Position numbers and translations under genes: made by a program
The notes under the pieces: model-generated
Told to the model about the DNA's origin: nothing
The model's database searches: none
The model's input: the letters and a program-made list of their open reading frames with translations, nothing else
NCBI GenBank assembly: GCA_963730185.1
Contig: CAVSQW010000007.1
Coordinates: forward strand, 640,001-704,000
Length of the DNA: 64,000 bases
Source of the DNA: an uncultured Gemmatimonadales bacterium
GTDB lineage: Bacteria; Gemmatimonadota; Gemmatimonadetes; Gemmatimonadales; GWC2-71-9
Direction of reading: 5' to 3'
Shown: piece by piece, positions 45,600-62,797 of the stretch
How positions within the stretch are numbered: position 1 is the first letter of the stretch
How the letters are laid out: each line of letters starts with the position of its first letter

Positions 45600-45845
45600 A
45601 GGGAAGGTGGGGCGGGTGGGCGCGGGCGGGAAGGGGCGGGGGAGGCGGGGAGAGATGGGAGAGACGGGGAGGGGGACGGGTGGTCGGATCATACTAGATC
45701 TCCCCTCACACCCCTCCCCATCTCTCCCCGCCTCTCCCCATCTCTCCCCATCTCTCCCCATCTCTCCCCATCTCTCCCCATCTCTCCCCATCTCTCCCCG
45801 TCTCTCCCCGTCTCTCCCCGTCTCTCCCCATCCCTCCCGATCTCC
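45600..45845. repeat. Polypurine/polypyrimidine VNTR: about 13 x TCTCTCCCCR with inverted partial copies
   Basis: 45711-45840 tandem 10-mers; 45641-45680 carries reverse-complement units (GGGGAGAGATGGGAGAGACGGGG). Confidence 0.9.
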
Positions 45846-45857
45846 CTCGACTCGTCC

Positions 45858-48800
45858 CTAGAATCCCGGCACGAGACTCAACTGAAACATCCACCCCTTG
45901 TCCGGGCGATCGAGCGGGCGGACCAGGGCACCTTCCACCACGGCGAAGCCGAGCAGGTTGACCCGGAGCGCCACGCCGGTGCTGAAGACCGGGCGCCGGC
46001 CCCCGTTCGAGAGGGACAGCGGATGGGCGTTGTCCCAGGCCCAGCCGCCGTCCGCGAACAGGGCGATCTCGGTCGGCAGCGGACCGCCGTAGTAGCCGCT
46101 CCCGATGCCCAGCAGGCGGAAGAGCGGGGCGCGAACCTCGAGGTTGCCGACCAGGATCCGGCTCCCCACCAGTTGATCGAAGGCCGGACAAGCCTGGGGG
46201 TCGGCGGCCGTGGGATGACACTCGTTGGCCGAGAACGACCCGATGGTGTAGCCCCGGACCAGCCCCTGGTAGCCGAGGAAGAGGGGCGCGAGGCGCCGGT
46301 CTTCCGCGTCGCCGCCGTAGCGACCGTAGTGCATGATCCGTGCGGCCACCGTCACCGGCGAAAAGGGCGTCAGGTACTCCCGGGCGTCGCCCAGGACGGT
46401 GGCGAAGGTGAGGGAGCCGATGGTCGGGGTGATCTCGAGCCGGGCTCGTGAGCCCTTGAGCGGGCTGGTCGCGCCGAGGATGGCGTTGTCATGCACCAAG
46501 GCGGCGCTCATTTGGCCGAGATTGAGCGACGAGGGCGCCGGGAGATTCTGCTTGTCGTTGATCAGGAGCTGCCCGGTGGTGAGCGAATAGGCCCGGGTCT
46601 GCTGCTGGATGTCGAACCCGATGTTCTGATAGGCGACCCAGGTCTCGGCCCGATCGAACCGATTGAAGGGATAGGACACGCCGAAGCTCAGCTGGCGATA
46701 GGTCTGCCGGTAGAGCAGCGACTGCTGGACCAGCGCCCCCTGGCCGTTGACGGTGTCGGTGCCGACCGCGAAGGCGCCGGTGCGGATCGGCTGCTGCTGC
46801 GCCTCGATGGCCCAGTTGGCGCGGTGCGCGAGCGAGGTGTACCCCACCTGGGCGGCGATGTCTTTGAGCCCGCCGTTCACCTGGAGACCGGTCACCAGGT
46901 TCTTCCGGCCGAGGAGGTCGCCGAAGTAGAGCGCGGTGCCGCCGCCGACGTAGGTCCCGAATTGGTCGGCGCCGAAGGCGAAGGTCGGCGGGGCGACGTA
47001 GTCGAGATGGAGGTCGCCGTCGTACGGATGGACCGGAAACGAGTCGCTCGCGGGTAGCCCGTCGACCGGATTGGCCTGGAGTGACAGGACTTCCTCGCCG
47101 TGGCGCGCGACCGGCGGGAGAATCGCGGCGTCGCCGTGGCGGCGGGGGGTGGCCGCGAGGGTGGCGCCGTCCTGGGACGCCTCCCGGCGGTAGATGTCGT
47201 ACCCGTCGCCGTTGAAGACGCTGATGGCCAGGGTGCCGGTCTTCGACGCGACCGAGAGGGCCGGGCTCAGGGGAGTGATGCCGCTCACCCCGGAGTAGAG
47301 GTCGGTGACCTGTCCGATGGTATCGCGCGCCAGGTCGGCCCGGTACACGTTGGCGATGCCGTCGCGGTTGGCCACGAAGTAGAGGGCCTGGCCGTCGGGC
47401 GCCCACTCGGGGTTCACGTTGTCGGCGTCCGGGAACGACGGCGCCGGGGTGATCCGCTTGGTCACGGGGTCGATATAGGCCAGCCGGTAATGGCCCGGGG
47501 CCAGCTCCTTCAGGTTGGCCGAGTAGCGGTCGGTGGTGAAGGCGATCCGGCGTCCGTCGGGCGACCAGGCGGGGTGGAGGTCGGCCCACGCGTCGTGGGT
47601 CAGCCGCCGGCGGTTGCCGGTGTCGAGGTCCACCACGAACAAGTCGGTGAGGCCGCCGATCAGGCCCGAGAACGCGATCGAATGCCCATCGGGCGACCAG
47701 GTGGGGTTGAAGATCTCGCCCAGGTCGTCGAAGTGGAGTTCGCGCGACACGGCTCGCCGGTCCACATCCCAGATCGAGATCATCGGCCGCCCGTGCGAGA
47801 CGCCGGCGAACGCGAACCGGTGTCCGTCCCCGCTCCAGGCGCCGGCCGAGTTGATGAACTCGAGGCTCTGGAAGTGGGGATCGAGGGCCGAGTTGGTGAG
47901 CCGGGTTCGGATGGCGCCGGTCTTGGCGCTGGCGTAGTAGAGCTCGACCGAGAAGAGGTCGCGGGACGAGAGGTACATCACCGACTGGCCGTCGGGGCTG
48001 AGCACGGGCGCGAGATTGAGCGTGGTGGAATCCCCGAGGCCGGTGACCGGGCTCCAGCCCGAGCGGTCGGGCCGGCGGTCGGTGACCGAGGCGAGGTCGC
48101 GATTGGCGGCTTCCAAGGACGCCCGCCAGCGGGCCACCAGGGTGTCGGGCGGTACCCGGAGCACCGAGTCGACCGCCCGAGCAAGATCGCGAATCCGGCC
48201 GCCCCGCCGGAGCAGCTGGGCGAGGGCGTCGTCGCCCCAGGTCCCGCCGACGTAGGCCAGGAGCGCCTGGCCGAACCGGTAGGGGAAGTACCGGGGGTCG
48301 TCGACGTCGCCGAACGTCTTGGGAAAGCGGCTTTCGATCGCGGTGCGCATCCACATGGCGGTCAAGGGGTCGTTGGGACCCTTCGACAGGTATTCGGCCA
48401 TGCCCTCGGTGAACCAGAGGGGCAGGGCGTTCACGCCGGGGCTGAGGCGGGAGTTCATCCGGCCCTCGTGGCCGGTGATGTCGTATTGGAAAGCGTGGAC
48501 CAGCTCGTGGCCGATCACGTGGTTGGTCTCTTCGATCGTGCCGGCCAGCGGGAGGACGATCCGACGTTTGAGCGGCTCGGTGAAGCCGCCGGTCCCTTCG
48601 CCGAGCTGGCCGGAGGTGGTGTTGGTCTGCTCGAACTCCGGATGGCTGGCGTAGAGGATCAGCGGCTGCCGCCCGCTGAGGTCATGATGGAAGAACGTGG
48701 CCAGGCGGGCGTACCACCGCTCGGCCATCCGGGCCGCCTGAGTGGCCGCCTGACGCTCTTCCGGGTAGAAGTAGACGTCGAAATGCTTGGTCTTGAGAAC

Positions 48801-50685: not shown

Positions 50686-50982
50686 CTGAAACAGTCGCGC
50701 GATCAATTCATCCAGGAAACCAAGCGGCGCCTCGACGTCCTGAACGCCCGCCTTGCTGAAATCGAAGCCAAGGCCCGTGACGTAAGGACCTCGGTGAGCA
50801 CGGCGGTCGCCACCCAAGCCGCCGAACTTCATCGCCGTCGGGACGAGCTTCGGAGCAAGCTGACGCAACTGTCGATTGCGGGTGCGGACGCAGGGGAGCG
50901 GCTCAAGGACGGCGTGGAGGAGGCCGCCTCGGCTCTCGAGCGGGCCTTCGACGAGGCGGAGGCGGAGGTCCGGAGCGCCTGA
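50686..50982 (+). CDS. Coiled-coil small protein resembling sll1863-like family (probable CTG start)
   Basis: KQSRDQFIQETKRRLDVLNARLAEIEAKA...LKDGVEEAASALERAF; in-frame TAG at 50626 limits the start. Confidence 0.65.
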   Translation: MKQSRDQFIQETKRRLDVLNARLAEIEAKARDVRTSVSTAVATQAAELHRRRDELRSKLTQLSIAGADAGERLKDGVEEAASALERAFDEAEAEVRSA

Positions 50983-51028
50983 CGTCCACGTCACCGATTG
51001 GAGCCTCAGGCCAACAGGGAGAAGGGTC

Positions 51029-51331
51029 ATGCCACAGCAGACTTGGAGTCAACGCGACGAACGAATCTACGAGCACGTCAAGCAGAGTGAGCGAGGTCGA
51101 GGCCGGGGCGCGGACCGGGCGGCCGAAATTGCCGCTCGAACCGTGAACCAGGAACGACGGAGAGAGGGCCGGACCGAAAACCGGCAGACGATGGGAACTG
51201 GAAACCCCAATACGTCCCTGGAAGACCGGACCGTGCCGCAGCTCCGCAATCGGGCTCGCGAGCTGGACATCGACGGCCGGAGCACCATGCGGAAGGCGGA
51301 GTTGATCGACGCGATCCGGACGGCAAGCTAG
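51029..51331 (+). CDS. Small protein with C-terminal Rho-N-like nucleic-acid-binding motif
   Basis: WSQRDERIYEHVKQS...AAEIAARTVN; TVPQLRNRARELDIDGRSTMRKAELIDAI. Confidence 0.85.
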   Translation: MPQQTWSQRDERIYEHVKQSERGRGRGADRAAEIAARTVNQERRREGRTENRQTMGTGNPNTSLEDRTVPQLRNRARELDIDGRSTMRKAELIDAIRTAS

Positions 51332-51409: not shown

Positions 51410-51541
51410 ATGGACTGGTGGGCCTGGATTCTGATTGCTCTCGCCGCAGTGATTCTGCTCTCTCGTCCATCGCCGGGTACCCCGCGATCAAGCGCCATCT
51501 GCGAATGCGGAGCATGGAGAGGGGAGTGCCGGGGGAACTAG
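51410..51541 (+). CDS. Small membrane protein (possibly frameshifted near 51460)
   Basis: GGAGG RBS; MDWWAWILIALAAVILL. A shifted frame continues SIAGYPAIKRHLRMRSM. Confidence 0.55.
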   Translation: MDWWAWILIALAAVILLSRPSPGTPRSSAICECGAWRGECRGN

Positions 51542-52434
51542 CGCCGGTCGGCACGTGCGATCGAGCGGCCGGGCTCGAGCCACTGCAGGAAGAGCACGGC
51601 GGCTGCCGCGAGATAGACCAGCCCCGCAGGGATCCACATGAGGAGGCCAGCCAACTGCTGGTCTTCGAGGGGGGTCAGGCCGAAGGCGGTGGTCCAGGGT
51701 CGATGGCTCGGGTACCAGGGTACGGTGGCGAAAGTGAGGAGGGCCCCGAGCGCGCTGCCCTGCAGCCCCATGGCAAACAGGTAGAGTATTCCCGCCCCGC
51801 GGTCGATCCGGACGCCGGCCGGCCGGAAGAGTACTCGCCAGAAGAGCAAGCTCGCACCCAACAGGGTGATGTGCTCCAGGGCATGGATGCCCTCGTGCGC
51901 GAGGGCCACCTCGTAAAGCCGAGGAAGGTGCCAGAGCCAGAGCAGCGCCGCGGCGAGGGCCCAACTCGGGGCCGGACGAGTCAACGGCTCGACCCGGTCT
52001 CGAAAGCCGGCCAGCCGGCGGCGGGCCGATCGGGGGAGCGCCCAGAGCACGCCTCGGCCCCAGTCGCCCAGGACCAGTAAGGGGGCCACGACGACGAGTA
52101 GCACCAGATGCTGGACCATGTGTGCCGAGAAGAGCGCTGTTGCCAGGGCATCGAGGGGCGAGACGAGGGCCAAGGCCAGCGAGACCATTCCGCCCACGAA
52201 CGCCACCGGCCTCCAGGCCGGGACGCCGCGCCCAGCACCCGCCCTGGCCCACAGGCGGCGGATCCCAAGCCAATAGGCCACTCCCAAGACGACAATCCCG
52301 ATCAGGGCACCAGGCTCGAACGTCCATGCCGACCAAATTGTCGCCGGGGTTGGGGGACGGTGTTCACCGGCCAGCCGCGCGGCAGTCTTCACCACCGGCG
52401 GGATCGCGACCAGCCAGCCGTTCCGACTCGGCAC
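51538..52434 (-). CDS. ctaG: Cytochrome c oxidase assembly protein, caa3-type CtaG family
   Basis: SPLDALA..LFSAHMVQH; WLWHLP; HALEH; LEDQQLAGLLMWIP. Confidence 0.9.
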   Translation of the reverse strand: MPSRNGWLVAIPPVVKTAARLAGEHRPPTPATIWSAWTFEPGALIGIVVLGVAYWLGIRRLWARAGAGRGVPAWRPVAFVGGMVSLALALVSPLDALATALFSAHMVQHLVLLVVVAPLLVLGDWGRGVLWALPRSARRRLAGFRDRVEPLTRPAPSWALAAALLWLWHLPRLYEVALAHEGIHALEHITLLGASLLFWRVLFRPAGVRIDRGAGILYLFAMGLQGSALGALLTFATVPWYPSHRPWTTAFGLTPLEDQQLAGLLMWIPAGLVYLAAAAVLFLQWLEPGRSIARADRR

Positions 52435-52445
52435 CGGGACGCCGC

Positions 52446-52847
52446 CTACCGGCAGATCGGCATCAGGAACAGGGGAAGGACGTCGAACCCAAGGCCGACG
52501 AGGAAGAACCCGGCCAGGATGAGCCCGCCGAGGGCCATGAAGCGGGCTCGGGCCGCGTGAGCTCCGGTATCCGCGACCGACCGCGCCGCCCTGAGGCTTC
52601 GGATCCCGGTCCAGAGGCCCAGGCCCGCGACGGCCAGGGCGACGGCGCTGAACGCCATCAGGGTCCACCACGCCCGGCTCTGACGAGTCACCGGCTCGGG
52701 GAGCAGCACGCAAGCTGCCGAGCTGACGGCGACCGAAACCAGGAAATGCGCACTCCAGGCGGCCGGCGCGCCGAACACGGCGAACCAGAGCGCTCGTCGA
52801 CCGACCGGCTCGGCCGGATCCCCGGCCCTCAGTCCCTCTGGGTTCAT
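52446..52847 (-). CDS. Hypothetical 3-TM membrane protein of oxidase operon
   Basis: LWFAVFGAPAAWSAHF..C; RARFMALGG; ends PICR; ATG overlaps the subunit III stop. Confidence 0.75.
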   Translation of the reverse strand: MNPEGLRAGDPAEPVGRRALWFAVFGAPAAWSAHFLVSVAVSSAACVLLPEPVTRQSRAWWTLMAFSAVALAVAGLGLWTGIRSLRAARSVADTGAHAARARFMALGGLILAGFFLVGLGFDVLPLFLMPICR

Positions 52848-53440
52848 CGGAGGCCCAGGCGCGGAGCGAGATAGAGCGACGTGAAGACGGCCAGCCACAC
52901 CAAGTCAACGAAATGCCAGTAGAGCGCGGCATTCGAGACGTAGGTGTGGCCCTTCGCGTCGAGCTCGCTGCGCCGCGCCATCATTGAGATCACGGTGAGG
53001 ATTACGAGGCCGACCAGCACGTGGGCGCCGTGCATCCCGGTGACGGTGAAGAACGCCGATCCATAGGCGTCGGTCCGGGGGGTGAAGGTCTGTCGACTGT
53101 ACTCGTATCCCTGGAGGCCCAGAAAGCTCGTTCCGAGGACCAGGGTGAATCCCAGACCGAGTCGAAGCCGACCTAGCTGCCCGGAACGGAGTCCCCGCTC
53201 GCCCCATCGAAGGGTGAGGCTGCTGGCGAGCAGGAGTACGGTATTGACCGAGGCGATCCGGAGATCGGGAGGGCCGAACGGCGGCCAGACGGGCGCCCGA
53301 GCACCGAGATAGAAGTAGGTAAACAGGAGGCAGGCAAAGAGCGCGGCCTCGGTGGCGATCAGGAGCAGCATCGCCCACTCCCCCGGGGGGTGCCGCTCGG
53401 TGGCCGGCAGGTTCGAGAGGACTCGATCGCCGGATGTCAC
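52844..53440 (-). CDS. ctaE: Cytochrome c oxidase subunit III
   Basis: LIATEAALF; NTVLLLASS; YGSAFFTVTGMHGAHV; YWHFVDLVW. Confidence 0.92.
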   Translation of the reverse strand: MTSGDRVLSNLPATERHPPGEWAMLLLIATEAALFACLLFTYFYLGARAPVWPPFGPPDLRIASVNTVLLLASSLTLRWGERGLRSGQLGRLRLGLGFTLVLGTSFLGLQGYEYSRQTFTPRTDAYGSAFFTVTGMHGAHVLVGLVILTVISMMARRSELDAKGHTYVSNAALYWHFVDLVWLAVFTSLYLAPRLGLR

Positions 53441-55332
53441 GACCTCTCCTCGGCCTCGTCCCGGGGCCAGAGCCAGCCGACGATCGTGACGCCCAAGGCG
53501 ATGACTGCGCCGATCGCCACGGGCCAGAGAGCGAAAAGAAGGGCGTAGAACAGGGTCAGCACGGCCATCGAGAGATAGAGCGGCCAGAGGCTGTCGCCCG
53601 GCATGCGCAGGATGGCCCTCGGTTCGGCGTCGAGCGCGCTGGTGCTGACCGCCAGGTGACCGTCGTCGAGGGGCGGTCCCTGATCGAGCACCGTGTGGCG
53701 TCCGGGTTCGAAGCGTCCTTCCCAGAGGGGGTGGCGACTGCCCACGCGGGGAATGGCGGCGAAGTTGTAGGGCGGCGGCGGCGAGGGAATCGACCACTCC
53801 AACGTTCCTGCGTCCCACGGGTTGGGCCCCGCCGGCCGGCCGTGCCGCCGGCTCCACCAGACGTTCGCGAGGGTGAGCAGGAAACCCCCGGCGAAGAGGA
53901 ACGATCCGAGGGTGACCACCAGGTTCCAGCCGCTCCAGCCGAGCCCCGCGGGATAGGTGTAGATCCGGCGGGGCATCCCCAGCAGGCCGAGGATGTGCAT
54001 CGGAAAGAAGCCCAGATTGAAGCCAAGGAACATCAGCCAGAAGTTCCAGCGGCCGAGGCGCTCGCTCATCAAGCGGCCAGTCATCTTGGGGAACCAGTAG
54101 TAGGTTGCCGCCACCACCGGGAAGAGGTTGATGCCGATCAGCACGTAGTGAAGATGGGCGACCACGAAGTAGGTGTCGGTGAGCTGCCAATCCAGGGGGA
54201 CCGCGCCGGTCATCACGCCGCTCACCCCGCCGATCACGAAGGTGATCACGAACCCGATCACGAACAGGAACGGCGTGGTAACGGTCGGCCGCCCCTGCCA
54301 GATGGTGGCCACCCACGCGAAGACCGACACCGCGCTCGGGATGGCGATGACCAGGCTCGCCCCGCCGAAGAACGAAAGGGCGAGGGTCGAGAGCCCGGTG
54401 GCGAACATGTGGTGGGCCCAGACACCGAAACCGATGATCCCGACCGCGACCGTCGCGAGCGCCACATAAGGGTAGGCCACCAGTGGCCGTCGGCAGAAGG
54501 TGGGCAGGATATCGGATGCGATGCTCATCGCCGGGAGGACGATGATGTAGACCCACGGGTGGCCGAAGATCCAGAAGAGATGCTGCCAGAGCAGCGGCTG
54601 GCCACCGTGGGCGGCGTCGTAGAAGTGTGTCCCCGCGTGACGATCGAGGTAGAGTAGAAGACAGGCGGCGCTCAGGGCCGGGACGGCGAAGATGGCGGCG
54701 AACGAGCTGGTCAAGGTGCCCCACAAAAGGATCGGTACCCGGTCCAGGGTCATGCCCGGCGCTCGCATCTTGAAAAAGGTGACGACGAAGTTGATGGCGC
54801 CGGCCGTGGTCGAGATGCCCAGGAACATCATTCCGAGCGCGAAGAAATCGATGTTGAGACGGGGGAGATACTCGGACGACGCCAGCGGCACGTAGTTGAA
54901 CCACCCCGCGTTGGGGGCGAGACCGAGGAGGAAGCTGCTGTAAAGAAAGATCCCGGCTCCAAGGAACAGCCAAAAGCCGACGGCGTTGACCCGGGGGAGC
55001 GCCATGTCACGTGCGCCGACCATCAAGGGCCAGAGATAGTTGCTGAACCCGGACAGGACCGGGAGGGCGAACAGGAACAGCATGGTCACGCCGTGCATCG
55101 TGAATAACTGGTCGTAGAGCTCCGGCGACACGACGCGGGTGCCGGCATGGGCCAGTTGAATCCGGATGAGCAGCGCCTCGAGGCCGCCGACCACCAGAAA
55201 GACGAAGGCCGTCACCAGGTAGCGCAGGCCGATGATCTTGTGGTCCACCGTGCCGAGCGCGCCCAGCCACCCCGGGGGGGTCGTCCACCGATCTCGGAGC
55301 CGGTCGATCGCGGCCGAGTCGGGGCCCGTCAT
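53437..55332 (-). CDS. ctaD: Haem-copper oxidase subunit I (A-family-like, atypical proton-channel residues)
   Basis: DHKIIG; FTMHG; GARDMALPR; GHPWVY; WAHHMF; VVAHLHY; GMPRRIY. Confidence 0.93.
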   Translation of the reverse strand: MTGPDSAAIDRLRDRWTTPPGWLGALGTVDHKIIGLRYLVTAFVFLVVGGLEALLIRIQLAHAGTRVVSPELYDQLFTMHGVTMLFLFALPVLSGFSNYLWPLMVGARDMALPRVNAVGFWLFLGAGIFLYSSFLLGLAPNAGWFNYVPLASSEYLPRLNIDFFALGMMFLGISTTAGAINFVVTFFKMRAPGMTLDRVPILLWGTLTSSFAAIFAVPALSAACLLLYLDRHAGTHFYDAAHGGQPLLWQHLFWIFGHPWVYIIVLPAMSIASDILPTFCRRPLVAYPYVALATVAVGIIGFGVWAHHMFATGLSTLALSFFGGASLVIAIPSAVSVFAWVATIWQGRPTVTTPFLFVIGFVITFVIGGVSGVMTGAVPLDWQLTDTYFVVAHLHYVLIGINLFPVVAATYYWFPKMTGRLMSERLGRWNFWLMFLGFNLGFFPMHILGLLGMPRRIYTYPAGLGWSGWNLVVTLGSFLFAGGFLLTLANVWWSRRHGRPAGPNPWDAGTLEWSIPSPPPPYNFAAIPRVGSRHPLWEGRFEPGRHTVLDQGPPLDDGHLAVSTSALDAEPRAILRMPGDSLWPLYLSMAVLTLFYALLFALWPVAIGAVIALGVTIVGWLWPRDEAEERS

Positions 55333-56330
55333 CGGCGCTGTTCCAGGAAGGCCACCAGGGTGTCCACTTCGGACCGGGTCAATCCTGTCCGCGGCATCAG
55401 GACGCCCGGCTTGACGCTGTCCGGGCGGCGGAGCCAACGACCCAGATTGGCGGCGGTATTCGGCACTATCCCGGACGCCAAGCTGGAACGTTCCGCCAAG
55501 TGGGTGAGGTCCGGACCGGCCAGCCCGGCCGATGGGGCGCCGCCGACTCGATGACAAGCCATACACCCCCGCCGTCGCAGGAGGTCGACCACCTCAGGGT
55601 CCGGTGGCACGGCCTCGCGCTGGCGACGGGCCCAGGCTTGGTAGGCGTCCGGCGTCTGCACCACCGCGACCAGGCGCATCAAGGCATGCGCCGGCCCGCA
55701 GAACTCGGCACACTGACCGACGTAGCGGCCGACCTGATTGGCTTCGATCCACATCTCGTTCCGTTGCCCCGGGATCAGGTCCGTCTTCCCGGCCAACTCC
55801 GGCACCCAGAAGCTGTGGATCACGTCACCGGCTTCGAGCTGGAGCCGTACCCGGGTCCCGACCGGGAGGTGGAGCTCGTTTGCGGTCACGAAATCGGGCC
55901 GGCCTCCGGGATCAAGGTACTGGAGCGACCACCAGAACCGATGGCCGACCACCCGGACCGTGAGTGGGGCCCCGGCCGCTCCGCGGCCGGAGTCGATCAG
56001 GACCCGGAGGGAATAGATGAACGCGCCGAGCAGGATGAGGGTGGTGACGGCGGTGCCGCCGACGATCCAGCGGCGGCTGCGGCGCTCGGTGGCCTCGAAC
56101 CGGGCGAACCGGTCCGAAGCCGGCGGGTCCGGCGGTCGGCGGCGGAAGAGCGCGACCAGCACCAGTCCAGAGACGATCACGACCACCAGGCTGGAGACGA
56201 TCGTGAGGGTCAAGCCGAGTCGCGCGATGGCGTCGCTCGACGCGCCGTGGGAGGCAAAGATCGAGGGCGATCGAGCACAGCTCCCGACCAGGACGGGCAC
56301 GACGAGGACTCCGGCCTTGCGTCCGTCCAC
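55329..56330 (-). CDS. ctaC: Cytochrome c oxidase subunit II with fused cytochrome c (caa3-type)
   Basis: LVGS|C lipobox; two TMs; DVIHSFWVP; CAEFCGPAHALM (CuA); CMACH. Start approximate. Confidence 0.92.
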   Translation of the reverse strand: MDGRKAGVLVVPVLVGSCARSPSIFASHGASSDAIARLGLTLTIVSSLVVVIVSGLVLVALFRRRPPDPPASDRFARFEATERRSRRWIVGGTAVTTLILLGAFIYSLRVLIDSGRGAAGAPLTVRVVGHRFWWSLQYLDPGGRPDFVTANELHLPVGTRVRLQLEAGDVIHSFWVPELAGKTDLIPGQRNEMWIEANQVGRYVGQCAEFCGPAHALMRLVAVVQTPDAYQAWARRQREAVPPDPEVVDLLRRRGCMACHRVGGAPSAGLAGPDLTHLAERSSLASGIVPNTAANLGRWLRRPDSVKPGVLMPRTGLTRSEVDTLVAFLEQRR

Positions 56331-56365
56331 AGTGCGACGCACCAGGCGGGCCCACTGACCGCCGC

Positions 56366-57799
56366 TCAACGGTGGGCCTCCGAGGGTCCGTCCCGGACCC
56401 GGGCGCCTCGTCGGCGGGTCGTCAGGAAGGCGACGAGCGCGTCCACCTCCGGAGCGCTCAGCAGGGCCCCGAAGGCCGGCATGTTGTAGCCACCGGTCTC
56501 CATCCACTGAGCCAGCTCCCCGGGGGGAAGTCGGTCACCGATGTCCGTCAGGTCCGGTCCACGTCGCCCCCCGTACCCTTCGACGCGGTGGCAGAACTCA
56601 CAGGCCCGATCATGGAAGAGTCGAGCCCCGTACCGCACCACGGAGTCGGCCGAGCGGACGACGGTGCTCGGCAGCTGCGGCGCCGAGAAGTCGGGGGCCC
56701 AGGGCGCCAGCCCCCCGATCCACCAGAGCGAACCGACTCCGAGGACGACCGTCGCCACGGCCGCCCAAGCCCAGGGCCGACGGGCGGGGTGACGTTCGCC
56801 CCGGGGAAAGAGGAGGGGAAGCAGGATCAGACCGAGGGCCCCCAGCAGCGGCAGGAGCCAGATTAGGAACCGTTCCGTTCCGTGCGGAAGCAGGGCCAGG
56901 AGGCCGAAGTACCAGAGCAGGTACCAATCGGGCCGCGGCTGGGCGTCGATGAGTGATGGGTTGGGAGGCTTGCCGAGCGCTTTGGGGCCGACGATCAGAG
57001 CGGCGGTGACGACCAAGGCCAGGACGGCCACGCCGAAGGCAACGTCGCGCCAGCCGGCATCCGGCCAAAAGGGGCGCCCCTCGCGTTCGAGCAAGGCCCG
57101 GTACTTGGCCCGGTAGGTCTTGGGATCGACCCCGTCGCCCCGGCGAGGTAGTTCGGAGATTCCGTGGCGGAGCACCAGATACAAATGAAGGCCGACGATC
57201 GAGGTGATCAGGATAGGCACCACGAACACGTGATAGGCGAAGAGATGGCTGAGCGTCGCGGTCCCGACGTTGGCACCGGCCAGGACGAATCGGGCCAGTG
57301 CGTGGCCGACTAGCGGAACCCGGCCCGCCTGTTCCGCGGCCACCACGGTCGACCACACGCCGTCCTGATCCCAGCGAAGGACCTGGCCGGTAAACCCCAT
57401 CGCCACGGTCAAGCCGAGGAGGAGAACTCCAGACAGCCAGTTGAGCTCGCGGGGGAACTTGTAGGCCCCGGTGAGGAAGACCCGGAGGGCATGGAGGCCC
57501 ACCAGCAGGATCATCGCGGAGGCGCCGAAGTAGTGCATCCCGCGGAGAAGCCGGCCGAAGAAGGCCTGATTGGTGATGAACTGAAGGCTCTGGTAGGCGT
57601 CACCCGAGGAGGGCACGTACATGGTGGCGAGGGCGGCGCCGGTCACGACCTGAAGCAGGAAGGCCATCAGGGTTGCGCTGCCGAACACGTATATCCATCC
57701 GGTATCCGGCGGCACCGGATGGTGGAGCAGGCGGTGGGTTGCTGCCCAGAGCCCAGTCCGATCCTCGATCCAGGTGCGGAGCCGGTTGAGGAGGCTCAC
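56366..57799 (-). CDS. Cytochrome b + subunit IV + cytochrome c fusion of a Rieske/cytb complex
   Basis: RGMHYFGASAMILLVGLH; YKFPRELNW; AYHV...GLHL; PDWY; CEFCH...MP. Confidence 0.92.
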   Translation of the reverse strand: MSLLNRLRTWIEDRTGLWAATHRLLHHPVPPDTGWIYVFGSATLMAFLLQVVTGAALATMYVPSSGDAYQSLQFITNQAFFGRLLRGMHYFGASAMILLVGLHALRVFLTGAYKFPRELNWLSGVLLLGLTVAMGFTGQVLRWDQDGVWSTVVAAEQAGRVPLVGHALARFVLAGANVGTATLSHLFAYHVFVVPILITSIVGLHLYLVLRHGISELPRRGDGVDPKTYRAKYRALLEREGRPFWPDAGWRDVAFGVAVLALVVTAALIVGPKALGKPPNPSLIDAQPRPDWYLLWYFGLLALLPHGTERFLIWLLPLLGALGLILLPLLFPRGERHPARRPWAWAAVATVVLGVGSLWWIGGLAPWAPDFSAPQLPSTVVRSADSVVRYGARLFHDRACEFCHRVEGYGGRRGPDLTDIGDRLPPGELAQWMETGGYNMPAFGALLSAPEVDALVAFLTTRRRGARVRDGPSEAHR

Positions 57800-57821: not shown

Positions 57822-58325
57822 TCACGTGATCGGGATGGGACGGGTCTCGACCTCGACTCGTCCGGCGCGAACCCTGACCCGAAGCCGCTTCAACGGTTGC
57901 TCAGGTGGTCCGGCGGCGACCCGACCGTCTTGGTAGAAGACGCCGCCGTGGCAGGGACACATGAAGAGTCGGGCGTCGCCGACCCAGCGAATCGGGCAGC
58001 CGAGGTGCGTACAATGGACGGAGAGGGCACTGAACGTCCCTTCGCTGTCTCGTCGGAGCCAGGCACCGGTGCGGGCGCTCACCCCTGACCAGGGCTGGGG
58101 CGACGGATCGTCGAATGCCACCTCGACCGTTCGACCGATCACGAAACCGTCGGTTGGTCCGACATCCCGCCAGGCCCCTGGGACCCGCCGCCGAAGGGGG
58201 CCGAGGACAAAGCCGATGGCTGGAACCGCAACGAGGGCCGCGCCGATCGCGGCCAGGGCGGCCCCGAGTCGGGAGAAAAAGCGACGGCGATCGCCGGAGG
58301 GTTCGGACGCCGGGCCGATGGTCAT
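57822..58325 (-). CDS. Rieske iron-sulfur subunit of Rieske/cytb complex
   Basis: DRRRFF Tat signal + TM; CTHLGC; CPCHGG; GPP. Confidence 0.93.
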   Translation of the reverse strand: MTIGPASEPSGDRRRFFSRLGAALAAIGAALVAVPAIGFVLGPLRRRVPGAWRDVGPTDGFVIGRTVEVAFDDPSPQPWSGVSARTGAWLRRDSEGTFSALSVHCTHLGCPIRWVGDARLFMCPCHGGVFYQDGRVAAGPPEQPLKRLRVRVRAGRVEVETRPIPIT

Positions 58326-58545
58326 CGGCTGGGGGGGAGGGACGGTGCAAGCAGGCAGGGAAGGCGGGCGGCCGTCCGGCGACCCGGGAGCGCTTGTCGA
58401 GATGGAATCGGCATGGGGTTCAGTCACCTCGTTTCCGGCTGCTTTTCGACCCGGAAAGGCACACAAGTACCGTGGCGGCATCCCCTTCTCGTCCGCACGC
58501 TGGAGCAACGATGACGTCAGCGTGGGGATTCGGATCGTATCTCGC

Positions 58546-58561
58546 TGGCCCGTCCGATGCA
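58546..58561 (+). promoter_or_regulatory. Putative sigma54 promoter of histidine kinase
   Basis: TGGCCCGTCCGATGCA, GG-N10-GC, about 95 bp before ATG 58658. Confidence 0.45.
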
Positions 58562-58657
58562 AGATTATGGTCGCCTCATCGTCACCCCAGAACCGGGGTG
58601 AGGCGCTATCTTCCGATCGACCGCGATCACTCCGACGACCTTCCGGAGGGCCACTGG

Positions 58658-59806
58658 ATGGGTACCGAGCTGGCAGGCCACGTCGGACGTCAGCTCGCGG
58701 CTCGCGCTTCCACAATTACCCGGCAGTGGATCGACCTCCTGGTCCGGCATCTCGGCGAAGCGCGAGCCCAAGTGCTGCCCGGCGCCACGCTGCTGAACCA
58801 CGTCCCCGCCATCATCCAGGATCTGGCCCGCTTTGTCGGAGACCCGCAGATTGCCGACCCGCTCAGGCCCGCGACCCAGGCGGACCTCGGTCGACTCGCG
58901 GATCTCAGGCGGCGACGGGGCACCACCCTGGAGGAGATCCTGAGAGAGTTCGGGATGCTGTCCGCCCTGGTGGAGGATGCCATCGCCGAGGGGATCGCCT
59001 CGTTTGAGGGGAAGGCTGGGCGGAAGGAAATCGTCCGGCTGGTCGGGCGGGCCAAGGACGCCGTCTTCGTGCTCGGCTCGGAGGCCGCGAGTCACTACCG
59101 GGCCTGGGTGGTGCGACGGCGAGCCGAGCGGTTACGGGTGCTCGAGGGCTATTCGGCCATGCTCTCGCACGAGTTGGGGAATCGGTTAGGCGCGGCGGAG
59201 ACAGCAGTCCGAGTGCTCATGGGGCAGTTGGAGGTGCCACCGGAGCGGCGCCAACGGCTTCACGATCTGATCCTCCATTCGGTTCGGAGCGGCCTCGAAA
59301 CCGTCGAGGCCGTGAGCACGCTGTTCCGAGCGCGGGACGAGGCCTCTGGGGGGGGCGCTCGGACCCTGCCCCTCGATGTCGTCCTCGGCGATGCCGTCCA
59401 TCAGCTTCGCGTTCGGGCCGGCGCCCGTCAGATCCGGCTCGAGCTGGTCGGCCCGGTGCCGTCCCAACTCGTCGATGCGGAGCGGTTTCCGCTGGTGCTC
59501 TATAACCTGGTCACGAACGCCGTCCGGCATCATGACCGCCCCGGGGGGCGGGTCAGGATCGCAGTCGAAGAGGAACCCCATGTCCTCGCCATCGTCGTCG
59601 CGGACGACGGACCGGGGATCGCCGAGGCCATGCGCGGACGGATCTTCGAGCCGCGGGCTCGGGGGGCGACCGAGGAGGAGGGAGCTGGCCTTGGGCTCGC
59701 GATCGCGAGGGAGGCGGCCGAACAGATGGGGGGGGCGATCGAGCTCGTTCCCAGCACGGGGAGAGGCTCGACCTTTCGACTGACCATCCCGTGCCGGCTG
59801 GAGTGA
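58658..59806 (+). CDS. Cytoplasmic histidine kinase with RsbRD-N-like helical input domain
   Basis: No TM; ITRQW...RRRRGTTLEEILREF; LSHELGNRL; NLVTNAVRH; DDGPGI; GAGLGL. Confidence 0.88.
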   Translation: MGTELAGHVGRQLAARASTITRQWIDLLVRHLGEARAQVLPGATLLNHVPAIIQDLARFVGDPQIADPLRPATQADLGRLADLRRRRGTTLEEILREFGMLSALVEDAIAEGIASFEGKAGRKEIVRLVGRAKDAVFVLGSEAASHYRAWVVRRRAERLRVLEGYSAMLSHELGNRLGAAETAVRVLMGQLEVPPERRQRLHDLILHSVRSGLETVEAVSTLFRARDEASGGGARTLPLDVVLGDAVHQLRVRAGARQIRLELVGPVPSQLVDAERFPLVLYNLVTNAVRHHDRPGGRVRIAVEEEPHVLAIVVADDGPGIAEAMRGRIFEPRARGATEEEGAGLGLAIAREAAEQMGGAIELVPSTGRGSTFRLTIPCRLE

Positions 59807-59845
59807 GTCCCGGCCGCGGAGGTGAGCTTGAGCCTCGGCCGTTGA

Positions 59846-61261
59846 TTAGATGCCGTACTTGCGCCGCCGGCGCCAGAGCGTCGAGGGCGCGACGCCCAGC
59901 ACCTCCGCGGCCTGTTCGACCGAGTCGGTCACCGCCATGACGTGGCGGAGGTAGCGTTCCTCGAGCCCGTTCAGGGTCGGCAAGGCGGCGGGGTCGCTCG
60001 CCCCGATTTGTTGCAGCAGATCTCCCGAGCCGGTCCGGGGCAGGGCGCCGACGCCGATCTCCTGGCGCCGTTCCAGGATCACGGCCCGCTCCACCGCGTT
60101 TTGCAGTTCCCGAACGTTGCCGGGCCAGCGCTGTTCGGTCAGGGCCACCCGGGCTTCGGGGGCAAAGCCGGTAATCGGCTTGCCATAGCGGCGGGCGAAG
60201 AAGTGGAGAAAGCGCTCGGCGAGCGGGACGACATCCTCAGGGCGCTCCCGCAGGGGGACCAGCTCGATCTGGATCACATTGAGCCGATAGTAGAGATCGT
60301 CGCGGAAGGCGTCTTCCCCGACGGCCCGGTGGAGGTCGCGGTTGGTTGCCGCGATGAGCCGAACATCGGCGTGGCGCGGCTCGGGATCGCCAACCCGTTC
60401 GTATTCCCGATCTTGCAGGAACCGCAGCAGGCGCGGCTGGAGATCGAGGTCGAGCTCGCCGACTTCGTCGAGCAACAGCGTGCCGCCGTCGGCATATTCG
60501 ATCTTCCCGGCCCGGGTGTCAGTCGCCCCGGTGAAGGAGCCCTTGACATGTCCGAAGAGCTCGCTTCGGAGGAGCTCGGCCGAAAGCGCCGGGCAATTGA
60601 CGGTGGCAAAGGGGTGGGCGGCTCGCGCGCTCCACCCGTGCATTGCCCGGGCGAGCACGCCCTTGCCGGTGCCGCTCTCGCCGGTGAGGAGGACGGTGGC
60701 GTCGGTCGGGGCCACGTCCGCCGCCAGCGCGATGGCTCGGGCCATCGCGGGATTCGCCGTCTCGAGGAGCGGAGTGGGATGGGAGTCCTTCGCGTCGTCT
60801 TCCATGGCGCGCATCCGGCTGGCCAGCCGCCGCCGTTCGATCGCCCGGCCGACCAACAGTTCCAGCTCGTCGGGCGCGACCGGCTTGGCGAGGTAGTCGA
60901 AGGCCCCTCGCCGCATGGCTTCGACGGCTGTGGCGATCGAGCCGTGGGCCGTGATCATGGCGACCAGCAACTCCGGGTCGGCGTCGAGCAACAGCGGCAG
61001 GAGGTCCAGCCCGGACTCGCCCCCGAGCCGGAGGTCGACCAGCGCCAAGTCAAAGCGATGTCGGGCGACGGCCACCCTTGCGTGCTCGCCCCCGGAGGTG
61101 GTGGTAATCAGATGCCCGCCGGGCTCGAGGCAGAGTCGCATGGCCTCCTGAACGGCGGGCTCGTCATCGACGATCAGGATCCGGGCGCTGCCCGGGGCGG
61201 GTCGTCCGTCCGCGGGCTCGAGTGGTTGCGCCGGTGTCGGGGATGAGTTCGGGGACGTCAT
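59846..61261 (-). CDS. Sigma54-dependent response regulator (NtrC/AlgB-like)
   Basis: IVDDE; VDLRL; GESGTGKG; SELFGHVKGSFTGA; WPGNVRELQN; LWRRRRKYGI. Confidence 0.95.
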   Translation of the reverse strand: MTSPNSSPTPAQPLEPADGRPAPGSARILIVDDEPAVQEAMRLCLEPGGHLITTTSGGEHARVAVARHRFDLALVDLRLGGESGLDLLPLLLDADPELLVAMITAHGSIATAVEAMRRGAFDYLAKPVAPDELELLVGRAIERRRLASRMRAMEDDAKDSHPTPLLETANPAMARAIALAADVAPTDATVLLTGESGTGKGVLARAMHGWSARAAHPFATVNCPALSAELLRSELFGHVKGSFTGATDTRAGKIEYADGGTLLLDEVGELDLDLQPRLLRFLQDREYERVGDPEPRHADVRLIAATNRDLHRAVGEDAFRDDLYYRLNVIQIELVPLRERPEDVVPLAERFLHFFARRYGKPITGFAPEARVALTEQRWPGNVRELQNAVERAVILERRQEIGVGALPRTGSGDLLQQIGASDPAALPTLNGLEERYLRHVMAVTDSVEQAAEVLGVAPSTLWRRRRKYGI

Positions 61262-62793
61262 GACGAGCTCCCGGGCTGGCGCTCAGATCCCTTGGCCCCG
61301 AGCGAATGGTGGAGCTTCGGGGTACGATCGGGCCGAACGGGTGTCGGAACATGGGCTGGGCGCGAATCGTGCTCAAGAGGGGCCGGGTCGCCGGCCTGGA
61401 ACGCGAGTGGGCTCTCGGGCTCGCTCCCGGCGTCGGCGGGCTCCCCGCCAGCCGACCACAAGACCAGAACGCCGCCGAGTCCCGCCGCCAGCGTGGACGC
61501 GAGAATCGCCAGCTTCGTCGCTTCGAGAGTCGGCCCCTGGAAGGCGAGCTTGGCGATGAAGAGCGCAACGGTGAAACCGATGCCGGCGAGCACCGAGACG
61601 CCGGCGACGTGCCGCCAGGTGAGCGAGGCCGGAAGGTGGACCAGATCGAGGCGCACCCCGATCCAGCAGGCAGCGAGCACCCCGATCGGCTTGCCGAGGA
61701 CGAGTCCCGCAGCCACCCCGCGGGCGGCTGGGTTCTGGATTGCCGGCCCGAGGGTCGCGGGTGAGACGACCGCGCCAGCGGTGGCCAGGGCGAAGAGGGG
61801 GAGCACCACGTAGCTCACCCAGGGACGGAGCCGGCGGCCGAGCCGCTCGGAAAGCGGCTCAGACCCGGTCACCATTGCTTCCAGGCCACCCAGAACCACT
61901 GCTCGGCGCCGAGTGTCGGCTCGGTCGAGCCCGGTCAACGCCGATCGGGCCATCGGGACGACTTCGCCCGGGTCGAAGAGCGACCGGGTCGGGATCAGCA
62001 GGCCGAGTGCGACCCCAGCGACTACGGGGTTGATTCCCGCGGCGAGCGTGGCGATCCAGAGTGCCAGCCCGAGGATCACGTAGAGGCTCAGGAGGCGAGG
62101 GCCGGTCCGAGCCAGGAGGCCGGCGGCGCCGATCAGGACGACGGCAACGCCGAGCCAGGGGAGGGATACGCGGCTGCCATAGAAGACGGCGATAAGCAGC
62201 ACCCCGCCTATGCTGTCCGCCGCCGCAAACCCGAGCAGAAGCGCCTTGAGGGCCTGCGGGACCCGGTTCCCCAGCAGCAGCAACACTGCGAGGGAGAAGG
62301 GCACGTCGGTTGCGACCGGGATCCCAAAGCCGGCTCGCAGGGGCCCATCTCCGGAGACCAGCAGGTAGAGCGCGGCAGGGATCAGCATTCCGCCGACGGC
62401 CGCGAGCAGTGGAAGCGCCGCTCGTTTGGGGCTGTCGAGATGGCCATCCTGGACTTCGTGGCGGATATCGAGGCCCAGAGTCAGGAAGAAGAGCGGTAAC
62501 GCCGCCACGTCGATCACCCGGCGGAGGGTGACGACGGCGGTCAGCGAGCCGATCCCGACCGTGAGCGACGTGTTCCAGAGCGCGGCGTAGCTGGCTGCCC
62601 AAGGAGAGTTGGCCCAGACGAGCGCGACGGTGGCGGCGCCGATGATGGGGACGCCGGCCGTCTCCGCGATCCGGATCCGCCGGGCGATCGGCACGCTGAC
62701 CGCTCGGGTGAAGATCGAGCGCTCGGCTCGGCGCGCCAGCCTGCCGCCGATCCGGCCCGGGAGATCAAGGCCCACCTCCCGCACCCGGCTCAC
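61258..62793 (-). CDS. nhaA: NhaA-family Na+/H+ antiporter, degenerate ion-binding motif
   Basis: ALVWANSP; AAVGGMLIPA; GIPVATDVPF; LGKPIG; LAGIGFTVALFI. The canonical DD is DS here. Confidence 0.85.
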   Translation of the reverse strand: MSRVREVGLDLPGRIGGRLARRAERSIFTRAVSVPIARRIRIAETAGVPIIGAATVALVWANSPWAASYAALWNTSLTVGIGSLTAVVTLRRVIDVAALPLFFLTLGLDIRHEVQDGHLDSPKRAALPLLAAVGGMLIPAALYLLVSGDGPLRAGFGIPVATDVPFSLAVLLLLGNRVPQALKALLLGFAAADSIGGVLLIAVFYGSRVSLPWLGVAVVLIGAAGLLARTGPRLLSLYVILGLALWIATLAAGINPVVAGVALGLLIPTRSLFDPGEVVPMARSALTGLDRADTRRRAVVLGGLEAMVTGSEPLSERLGRRLRPWVSYVVLPLFALATAGAVVSPATLGPAIQNPAARGVAAGLVLGKPIGVLAACWIGVRLDLVHLPASLTWRHVAGVSVLAGIGFTVALFIAKLAFQGPTLEATKLAILASTLAAGLGGVLVLWSAGGEPADAGSEPESPLAFQAGDPAPLEHDSRPAHVPTPVRPDRTPKLHHSLGAKGSERQPGSSS

Positions 62794-62797
62794 CCTG

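What the first reader, a model, noticed from the sequence alone, without database searches (positions are those of the whole stretch)
53437..55332. Haem-copper oxidase subunit I lacking both the D-channel Glu and the K-channel Lys
Seen: all metal ligands and the cross-link Tyr are present (TMHG, HPxVY, HH, HLH). Helix VI reads FGHPWVY (Trp codon 54553-54555) and helix VIII reads AIPSAVSVFAW (Ser codon 54325-54327). Established: A1 oxidases have GHPEVY, A2 use YSHPxVY, and both keep the Lys of PTGxK. The D-channel entry Asp and Asn (GARDMALPRVN) are retained, and subunit II shows no obvious Glu at the start of TM2. Inference: an oxidase with altered proton delivery, non-pumping behaviour or different chemistry. 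This region has no frameshifts and each change needs several base substitutions, so sequencing error is unlikely.
Basis: partly seen in the sequence, partly recalled or inferred. Interest (0 to 1): 0.78.

Follow-up and report, generated by a model that had tools for sequence, protein, structure and literature searches.

The report
Cytochrome oxidase with tryptophan-plugged proton channel
This gene encodes an intact spare oxygen-reducing respiratory enzyme from a widespread, biochemically untested bacterial lineage that has tryptophan and a small residue where textbook enzymes need a glutamate and a lysine to move protons, and a culturable relative is known to be switched on, so how it moves protons can be tested.

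Summary
Confirmed. Subunit I (53437-55332, minus strand) keeps all six His and the cross-link Tyr, but has Trp260 at Rhodobacter Glu286 and Ser336 at Lys362; subunit II lacks Glu101. This is a lineage trait: HPWVY in 121 of 121 closest proteins, none with Lys; dN/dS 0.02-0.16. The main Trp clade nests inside a larger Lys-less clade, so Lys was probably lost first. Trp at this column is also the NO-reductase state, but the Tyr points to O2 reduction. The genome, and 10 of 10 other carriers checked, also has a canonical oxidase. Elsewhere the operon usually sits beside a XoxF3-like PQQ dehydrogenase (56 of 80 loci); here a Rieske/cytochrome b pair takes that place. In Methylocella tundrae T4 the HPWVY oxidase is transcribed in step with xoxF3 (published RNA-seq). 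Best reading: an accessory O2 reductase that pumps little or not at all, probably fed by a Ser/Thr-lined K-type path; this is inferred, not measured. The operon type and Lys-less oxidases are in print; I found no paper on the Trp. This scan noted the clade at least four times before on other DNA. New variant of a known kind.

The parts
53437..55332 (-). coxA/ctaD, haem-copper oxidase subunit I, 631 aa, 12 core helices plus two C-terminal helices; W260 and S336 at the Glu286 and Lys362 positions
   Evidence: TIGR02891 697 bits, above its cut-off of 670.75; PF00115; AlphaFold pLDDT 86.9, pTM 0.90; best Foldseek match Thermus caa3 2YEV, TM 0.86
54553..54555 (-). Trp260 codon (TGG), at the D-channel Glu position
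54325..54327 (-). Ser336 codon (TCG), at the K-channel Lys position
55329..56339 (-). coxB, subunit II with CuA site and fused cytochrome c (caa3 type); start approximate; no TM2 Glu
   Evidence: TIGR02866 above cut-off; PF00116 + PF00034; CuA ligands and CxxCH present
56366..57799 (-). cytochrome b with fused C-terminal cytochrome c; the only cytochrome b found in this 82%-complete genome
   Evidence: PF00033, PF13442; one PF00033 match in the genome
57822..58325 (-). Rieske 2Fe-2S protein with twin-Arg leader; CHGG-V-F motif lacks the Ser and Tyr of high-potential Rieske proteins (that rule is recalled)
   Evidence: PF00355; sequence
52844..53437 (-). coxC, five-helix subunit III; start overlaps the coxA stop
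   Evidence: PF00510
52446..52898 (-). conserved three-helix membrane protein of no known family (invariant Trp and Cys); candidate extra subunit; start may be 52847
   Evidence: 60 homologues in 106 HPWVY loci; alignment; no Pfam or NCBIfam family; only unnamed Atlas clusters; weak complex support, 0.60 against best control 0.00
51538..52440 (-). Caa3-type CtaG copper assembly factor; start approximate
   Evidence: PF09678 196 bits

Best explanation
An intact, accessory caa3-type O2 reductase (operon type a-II) that conserves less energy than a canonical A1 oxidase. Shown: the haem a/a3-CuB-Tyr site and the CuA/haem c input are intact and under purifying selection; Glu286, Lys362 and subunit II Glu101 are gone; carriers keep a canonical oxidase too. 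Inferred: Trp260 caps the top of the D-channel, as the same Trp does in non-pumping NO reductases, so pumping is low or absent. Inferred, less securely: chemical protons reach Tyr262 mainly through a Ser/Thr-lined K-type path (S333, S336, T294, S273, with new hydroxyls on helices V and IX), much as in B-family oxidases. Inferred role: a low-coupling electron sink wired to its own donor. In most genomes that is a XoxF3-like dehydrogenase with its cytochrome c; here it is a low-potential, probably menaquinol-oxidising Rieske/cytochrome b-c complex.
For: Invariance in 121 of 121; dN/dS 0.018-0.156 in 13 of 14 pairs, 1 saturated. The NOR column is Trp: HIWVE/HLWVE in 5 of 5 NOR-type ORFs aligned and in solved qNOR 3AYF; cNOR does not conserve energy (PMC11214002 passages). 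Clade-specific hydroxyls T206, T208, S210, T294, T375 (120-121 of 121) and T297 (108 of 121) lie 1-6 residues from R. sphaeroides L238, G324 and G398, which bound the K-channel volume (PMC10341450 passage); M316 and A319 face it (PMC9687966). In the sister lineage position 294 is Glu in 14 loci, and there position 260 varies: E 11, L 1, I 1, W 1. All 13 proteins with Val297, the query among them, have Ser/Thr at 336. B-family proteins show P-S-x-x-T at the same place. Canonical E+K oxidase in the own genome and in 10 of 10 other carriers. PQQ dehydrogenase within 8 kb in 56 of 80 GTDB loci, and in 11 of 22 Trp loci against 0 of 36 Lys loci in the metagenome set. M. tundrae T4_00359-61 follow xoxF3/J3/G3 in the same rank order over four conditions.
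Against: The lower D-channel is invariant in 121 of 121 closest proteins (Y38, N98, D109, N116, N181) and has gained S94, S97 and T176; a dead channel should decay. The query has only 4 polar residues at 10 K-region positions, the same as the commonest count in canonical enzymes (23 of 40), though most of its subclade has 5-6. The B-family Tyr at the S291 position is absent. Thr at 294 also occurs in 9 of 40 canonical sequences. Kin share residues, so the covariation counts are not independent. No distances could be measured on the model, whose helix VII-X loops have pLDDT 59-75. No activity or H+/e- value exists for any member that I found.
Confidence: 0.48

Rival explanations
1. The D-channel is still the working route. 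Protons pass Trp260 on a water or Ser/Thr chain (S94, S97, T175, T176), the K-path is closed, and the enzyme pumps at B-like or near-normal stoichiometry.
For: D-channel entry and asparagine gate invariant in 121 of 121 and in 57 of 57 of the query's subclade. A2 enzymes pump without the Glu (PMC3084760 table). Lys-less A-type oxidases that keep the D-channel are catalogued (bioRxiv 2020.03.01.968255).
Against: No Tyr-Ser substitute. In basal Trp members the N121 position is Asn in only 7 of 16 and the D132 position is Glu in 2 of 16. An indole cannot shuttle protons (established chemistry).
Confidence: 0.25
2. A non-electrogenic O2 reductase that, like cNOR, takes its chemical protons from the periplasm and acts as a pure electron valve for periplasmic dehydrogenases.
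For: Both cytoplasmic key residues and the subunit II entry Glu are lost; Trp matches the NOR state; the enzyme is always accessory in the genomes checked.
Against: The cytoplasmic D-channel entry is invariant and new hydroxyls cluster on the cytoplasmic half of helices V and VII. I identified no periplasmic proton path.
Confidence: 0.1
3. The enzyme reduces NO, or is an NO-tolerant dual-function oxidase.
For: Trp at the NOR column. The M. tundrae homolog rises 17-60-fold in anoxic methanol + N2O cultures (PMC11102522 supplement). A-family oxidases can reduce NO slowly.
Against: Cross-link Tyr262 is kept and the NOR Glu ligands are absent; the Tyr marks O2 chemistry. Highest transcript level is in O2-replete methane cultures, 192 TPM against 88 anoxic. 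CtaG copper chaperone in the operon.
Confidence: 0.1
4. Sequencing error, pseudogene or decaying copy.
For: The gene is patchy: 17 of 251 genomes of the phylum carry the motif, and none of 21 same-genus genomes has a match above 52% identity.
Against: Open frames across the operon; 121 of 121 share the motif; dN/dS at most 0.16; a homolog is transcribed and regulated.
Confidence: 0.02

Closest known systems
A1-type caa3/aa3 cytochrome c oxidases (Thermus caa3 2YEV; M. smegmatis CtaD 6ADQ; R. sphaeroides 1M56; P. denitrificans 1AR1)
   Same: Fold (TM 0.86 to 2YEV), six His, cross-link Tyr, CuA plus haem c subunit II, lower D-channel
   Different: Glu286 to Trp, Lys362 to Ser, Thr359 to Ser, no subunit II Glu101; new Ser/Thr/Asn on helices II, V, VII, IX and X
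COX operon type a-II (Degli Esposti 2014, PMC4013037) and xoxF3-cox-ctaG clusters (Voutsinos 2024, PMC10875860)
   Same: Subunit I with a two-helix C-terminal extension, subunit II fused to cytochrome c, five-helix subunit III, small hypothetical protein between coxC and ctaG, frequent PQQ dehydrogenase neighbour
   Different: PMC4013037 has 0 occurrences of 'proton' or 'channel' in text and supplement; the PMC10875860 passages read do not discuss oxidase residues. Here a Rieske/cytochrome b pair replaces the dehydrogenase module (Rieske in 1 of 80 loci).
Lys-less A-family oxidases catalogued from sequence (Acidithiobacillus rus-operon type and others; PMC8239418 Table for Fig. S7; bioRxiv 2020.03.01.968255)
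   Same: Loss of K354 and of subunit II E78 with the D-channel kept
   Different: The table, read whole, has no row labelled a-II and no E278 column; Trp at the Glu position is not mentioned
B-family (ba3-type) oxidases
   Same: No Glu at the 286 position; Ser at 359 and a small hydroxyl at 362 (P-S-A-V-S against P-S-F/L-x-T)
   Different: D-channel residues are kept; no Tyr at the S291 position; phylogenetically inside family A; 362 is Ala in 78 of 121 relatives
cNOR/qNOR nitric oxide reductases (3AYF, 3O0R)
   Same: Trp two residues after the first metal-ligand His
   Different: Tyr, not Glu, at +4; no second Glu; CuA subunit and CtaG present; the Trp is convergent

Membership tests
Haem-copper oxygen reductase, family A (broad) | Six His ligands and helix VI cross-link Tyr | tested here: met
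   H80, H258, Y262, H307, H308, H393, H395, each 121 of 121
Haem-copper oxygen reductase, family A (broad) | Sequence and tree placement among A-family subunit I | tested here: met
   TIGR02891 above cut-off; nested beside caa3-type A1 proteins
Haem-copper oxygen reductase, family A (broad) | O2 reduction and proton pumping measured | not testable with these tools
   No biochemistry found for any member
Type A1 (PMC3084760 Table 2) | D-channel Asp124, Asn199, Asn113, Asn131, Tyr35, Ser134, Ser193 | tested here: met
   D109, N181, N98, N116, Y38 and T175 present; the Ser134 position is Gly in the query but Ser in 54 of 57 of its subclade
Type A1 (PMC3084760 Table 2) | Glu278 at the top of the D-channel | tested here: not met
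   Trp260
Type A (PMC3084760 Table 2) | K-channel Lys354, Thr351, Ser291, Tyr280 | tested here: not met
   Ser336 for Lys, Ser333 for Thr; Ser273 and Tyr262 kept
Type A2 | Tyr-Ser before the helix VI His | tested here: not met
   F256-G257, against Y-S in 11 of 11 A2 rows
Type B | No D-channel; alternative K-channel Thr, Ser, Tyr | tested here: not met
   D-channel kept; Ser/Ser/Ser, with no Tyr at the S291 position
Type C (cbb3) | Active-site Tyr from helix VII | tested here: not met
   Gly301 at that position in 76 of 76 Trp rows
cNOR/qNOR | H-x-aromatic-x-E motif with FeB Glu, no cross-link Tyr | tested here: not met
   Aromatic Trp present, but Tyr262 where NORs have Glu
COX operon type a-II | COX4-like two-helix fusion at the C-terminus of COX1 | tested here: inconclusive
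   Helices 583-599 and 603-621 in the model; PF12270 precomputed on 1 of 120 homologues but not on the query
COX operon type a-II | COX2 fused to cytochrome c | tested here: met
COX operon type a-II | Frequent association with a PQQ dehydrogenase | tested here: inconclusive
   Met for the clade (56 of 80 loci) but not at this locus; the genome's closest PQQ dehydrogenase lies on another contig (C15)

The most novel reading that the evidence does not exclude
A natural A-family oxygen reductase that does not pump at all. It has converged on the NO-reductase tryptophan plug at the Glu286 site, runs on a lysine-free hydroxyl channel (or on periplasmic protons), and serves as a dedicated, deliberately uncoupled electron sink for lanthanide-type XoxF3 dehydrogenases, here rewired to a quinol-oxidising bc complex. 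It would be a natural intermediate between A-type two-channel and B-type one-channel designs.
Probability: 0.3. Interest if true: 0.75.

Novelty: new variant of a known kind. Interest (0 to 1): 0.55.

Why it matters
Glu286 and Lys362 are treated as the central residues of proton transfer in A1 oxidases, including the mitochondrial enzyme; replacing either nearly stops turnover in model enzymes (recalled). A widespread, conserved, expressed lineage without both is a natural experiment on what is needed for O2 reduction versus pumping. The tree supplies intermediates: Lys to Gln with Glu kept, Glu at 294, then Trp. Annotation pipelines and at least one paper call such enzymes proton-pumping A1 oxidases without measurement (PMC11102522), which affects energy budgets drawn from soil genomes. 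It also gives the unstudied XoxF3 systems a defined terminal step. A culturable host with known inducing conditions (M. tundrae T4) makes the test practical.

Tried and rejected
1) A conserved bc-oxidase supercomplex as a clade trait: rejected. Rieske occurs in 1 of 80 HPWVY loci. Of 13 close cytochrome b homologues in the phylum, 11 show no oxidase in the stretch fetched (one only 3 kb) and 2 lie beside canonical E+K oxidases. 2) A single origin of Trp: the first tree suggested it (76 rows one side of a branch, support 88, trait columns included). With sister sequences added and 21 trait columns dropped, two changes are needed, because L178 carries Trp inside the Glu294 clade. The quick version of that tree left the Trp subclades unresolved. 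No AU test was run. 3) E52 as the compensating acid: it also occurs in the canonical paralog and lies in helix I. 4) B. cenocepacia H111 'caa' expression data (PMC11742914): not used, because that enzyme is a I+III fusion and I could not show it is HPWVY. 5) Expression at this locus: no RNA holder was listed; this is no evidence either way, and read laying was not used. 6) Channel modelling: the model's coordinates do not reach the script machine, so proximity rests on published residue lists. 7) Quinone type: mqnC not found in this 82%-complete genome, 2 UbiA-family matches; unresolved. 8) Island test: GC 0.66-0.69 across the operon against 0.64-0.76 over the window; GC3 0.75-0.89 against 0.88-0.94 for the canonical coxAB; suggestive only. 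9) No sigma-70-like promoter found. 10) My histidine-kinase query was on the wrong strand, so nothing is claimed about its conservation. 11) Literature: 'HPWVY' in 0 papers; two searches gave 0 papers; searches listed none whose title or abstract start names this variant. The Degli Esposti 2020 BBA review is not held, and the bioRxiv 2020 preprint's supplement (Fig. S10) is closed; either could catalogue the variant.
Full report
Observation. The frame 53437-55332 (minus) gives an unbroken 631-aa subunit I that passes the CtaD cut-off and folds like Thermus caa3 (pLDDT 86.9; TM 0.86 to 2YEV). I mapped numbering through P0202, a near-gapless match to P. denitrificans and R. sphaeroides subunit I. 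W260 is Glu286, S336 is Lys362 and S333 is Thr359 (R. sphaeroides numbering). The six His, Tyr262 and the lower D-channel (Y38, N98, D109, N116, S174, T175, N181) are kept. There is no A2 Tyr-Ser.

It is a lineage, not an accident. The query and the best 120 of 8000 hits all have HPWVY, and none has Lys at 336. Position 336 was readable in 75 of those 80 and was never Lys (A 40, Q 18, S 7, G 5, T 5). Subunit II has no Glu in the canonical column in 0 of 74 sequences. dN/dS was 0.018-0.156 in 13 of 14 hand-picked close pairs; one was saturated. The nearest named relatives are Gemmatimonadota, so the genome probably is too (inference).

It is accessory and patchy. The genome has a canonical E+K caa3 operon on C6 with the subunit II Glu, one haem A synthase, a bd oxidase match in pieces and an ACIII-like cluster. 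Ten of 10 other carriers checked also have an E+K oxidase. The motif is in 17 of 251 genomes of the phylum, the own included. None of 21 same-genus genomes (73-98% complete) has a match above 52% identity, and one has no match.

History. A FastTree of 170 rows (156 of 232 candidates passed a coverage and ligand filter; 14 fragments were added back) put all 76 Trp rows on one branch inside a Lys-less clade. A careful IQ-TREE run used 61 rows that I chose, LG+G4 without mixture, with 21 trait columns removed and A2 proteins as root. It gave 100/100 for the Lys-less clade of 48 rows and 96/83 for the main Trp clade of 22 rows, with one further Trp (L178) inside the sister clade. The likely order is Lys to Gln, then Glu to Trp, then Gln to Ala/Ser/Gly/Thr; it depends on the root and no AU test was run. 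The sister clade is informative: 14 metagenome loci have Glu at position 294 (M320, helix VII), and in them position 260 is E 11, L 1, I 1, W 1; three more have Asp260 with Thr294. Once Lys is gone and helix VII gains a polar residue, Glu286 seems free to be lost (inference).

What could carry protons. No Glu or Lys replaces the lost ones in this protein; E52 in helix I is shared with the canonical paralog. The clade has instead fixed hydroxyls at T206, T208, S210, T294, T375 and an Asn at 402 (120-121 of 121), T297 (108 of 121), and usually a small residue at 212 (116 of 121), where canonical enzymes have Leu. These map next to L238, G324, A356 and G398, which bound the K-channel volume in a simulation paper (PMC10341450, passages); M316 and A319 face the channel (PMC9687966, passages). 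The 13 proteins with Val297, the query among them, all have Ser or Thr at 336 (kin, so not independent). B-family proteins from relatives show the same P-S-x-x-hydroxyl pattern. Against this, the query has only 4 polar residues at 10 K-region positions, no more than most canonical enzymes, and the D-channel is invariant in its subclade, though not in basal Trp members (Asn in 7 of 16 at N121). I could not measure distances, so the route is open: K-type path about 55%, D-channel about 30%.

The tryptophan. NO reductases have Trp in this column (HIWVE/HLWVE in 5 of 5 NOR-type ORFs aligned; solved qNOR 3AYF), and cNOR does not conserve energy (PMC11214002, passages and section 7). This shows the fold tolerates Trp there and suggests a plug. 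It does not make the enzyme a NOR: Tyr262 stands where NORs have the FeB Glu, and that Tyr marks O2 chemistry.

Context and expression. A PQQ dehydrogenase lies within 8 kb in 56 of 80 GTDB loci (33 of 44 full-length; a few hits are short or distant). It does so in 11 of 22 Trp loci against 0 of 36 Lys loci in the metagenome set (7 of 10 against 0 of 20 among loci of 10 kb or more). 51 of 52 aligned segments carry D-x-D at the position I recall as the lanthanide site. This is the xoxF3-cox-ctaG cluster of Voutsinos 2024 (PMC10875860, passages) and matches operon type a-II of Degli Esposti 2014 (PMC4013037, passages and supplement passages). Methylocella tundrae T4 plasmid p1 carries an HPWVY oxidase (63% identical) beside xoxF3. 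Its published RNA-seq (PMC11102522, passages and supplement rows) gives ctaD 3, 88, 192 and 47 TPM for CH3OH+O2, CH3OH+N2O, CH4+O2 and CH4+O2+N2O. I inferred the column order from the fold changes. xoxF3 gives 15, 140, 728 and 122; all six cox and xox genes read share this rank order, while the canonical ctaE does not (210, 414, 173, 310). The authors list it as a low-affinity aa3 oxidase and call the terminal oxidases proton pumps, without measurement in the passages I saw.

This locus. Here the upstream module is Rieske plus cytochrome b-c, the only cytochrome b found in the genome. That pairing is local: Rieske in 1 of 80 clade loci, and 11 of 13 close cytochrome b homologues show no oxidase nearby. 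The gene order rieske, cytb, coxB, coxA, coxC, small protein, ctaG, with overlapping or near-touching ends, suggests a self-contained quinol-to-O2 branch (inference). The small three-helix protein is in 60 of 106 HPWVY loci. Folded with subunits I and III it scored 0.60 against a best control of 0.00; the runs agree in at least 96% of contacts and partner pLDDT is at least 75. The mark was reached by 116 of 157 solved complexes and 2 of 215 mismatches, but at 0.60 or under by only 18 of the 157 and by both mismatches. The job had three chains and my own alignments, unlike the calibration, so this is weak support for a subunit.

Known and new. Lys-less A-type oxidases are catalogued (bioRxiv 2020.03.01.968255, passages; PMC8239418, passages, supplement file 2 passages and file 5 whole). 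Glu-less A2 enzymes are textbook (PMC3084760, passages; PMC6431628, passages). By those definitions the protein fails A1, A2, B, C and NOR while belonging to family A by descent. I found no paper on Trp at this site (open-access library only; the 2020 BBA review was not held; Keltjens 2014 seen only as cited). Mutant phenotypes of E286 and K362 and the Rieske potential rule are recalled. The scan's own notes describe this clade on other DNA, one marked 'part of it fell' without saying which part; those notes are leads, not support.

Verdict. Real, conserved, a new variant of a known kind, mechanism unmeasured. O2 reductase about 0.88; pumping below A1 level, given that, about 0.7; full best explanation 0.48. 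Interest 0.55.

Noticed in passing
L178, L180, L186-L189, L192-L197, L199, L236 (metagenome loci): Sister lineage of Lys-less (Gln) A-type oxidases with a buried Glu at the R. sphaeroides M320 position in helix VII; the Glu286 position varies (E, L, I, W). Many have a distant cytochrome b homologue (26-30%) about 3-5 kb downstream.
   Followed up: partly
P0124-P0135, L022:8005, L029:1357, L241: Second Lys-less sister clade with Glu at positions 94, 172 and 181 in the D-channel; L022 and L029 carry this type and the Trp type within about 6 kb of each other.
   Followed up: partly
window 58115-63901 and 50978-51331: Flanking genes look stress-related: histidine kinase with RsbRD_N domain (plus strand) converging on a sigma-54 response regulator, NhaA, a baeRF10 hibernation-factor-like protein, and a small Rho_N protein. 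A paralogous regulator and Rho_N pair lies at G000:C14:265853-267803.
   Followed up: no
G000:C12:89089-90277: The cytochrome bd subunit I match is in three pieces with stops, probably long-read frameshifts or a broken gene.
   Followed up: no
G000:C8:448900-455800 (L162): ACIII-like cluster (molybdopterin/Fe-S fusion, NrfD, cytochrome c), a likely electron donor for the canonical caa3; a second NrfD with a multihaem cytochrome at C8:325022.
   Followed up: partly
G000:C15:748677-750802 (L159): PQQ dehydrogenase about 50% identical to the oxidase-linked ones, with D-x-D and an adjacent cytochrome c but no oxidase genes nearby; one of about nine PQQ-family matches in the genome.
   Followed up: partly
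L233:3313 and L239:1893: A highly diverged second subunit I-like ORF (26-27% identity; helix VI position Thr in L239) upstream of a canonical oxidase operon.
   Followed up: no
window 45607-45861: Low-complexity purine/pyrimidine-biased repeat between two genes (repeats such as GERWGEMGRD in one frame).
   Followed up: no
L026, L200, L218, L224, L240, L256: GMC-family flavin dehydrogenase genes near type-a oxidase operons, an alternative periplasmic donor to the PQQ enzyme (6 of 80 GTDB Trp loci).
   Followed up: no
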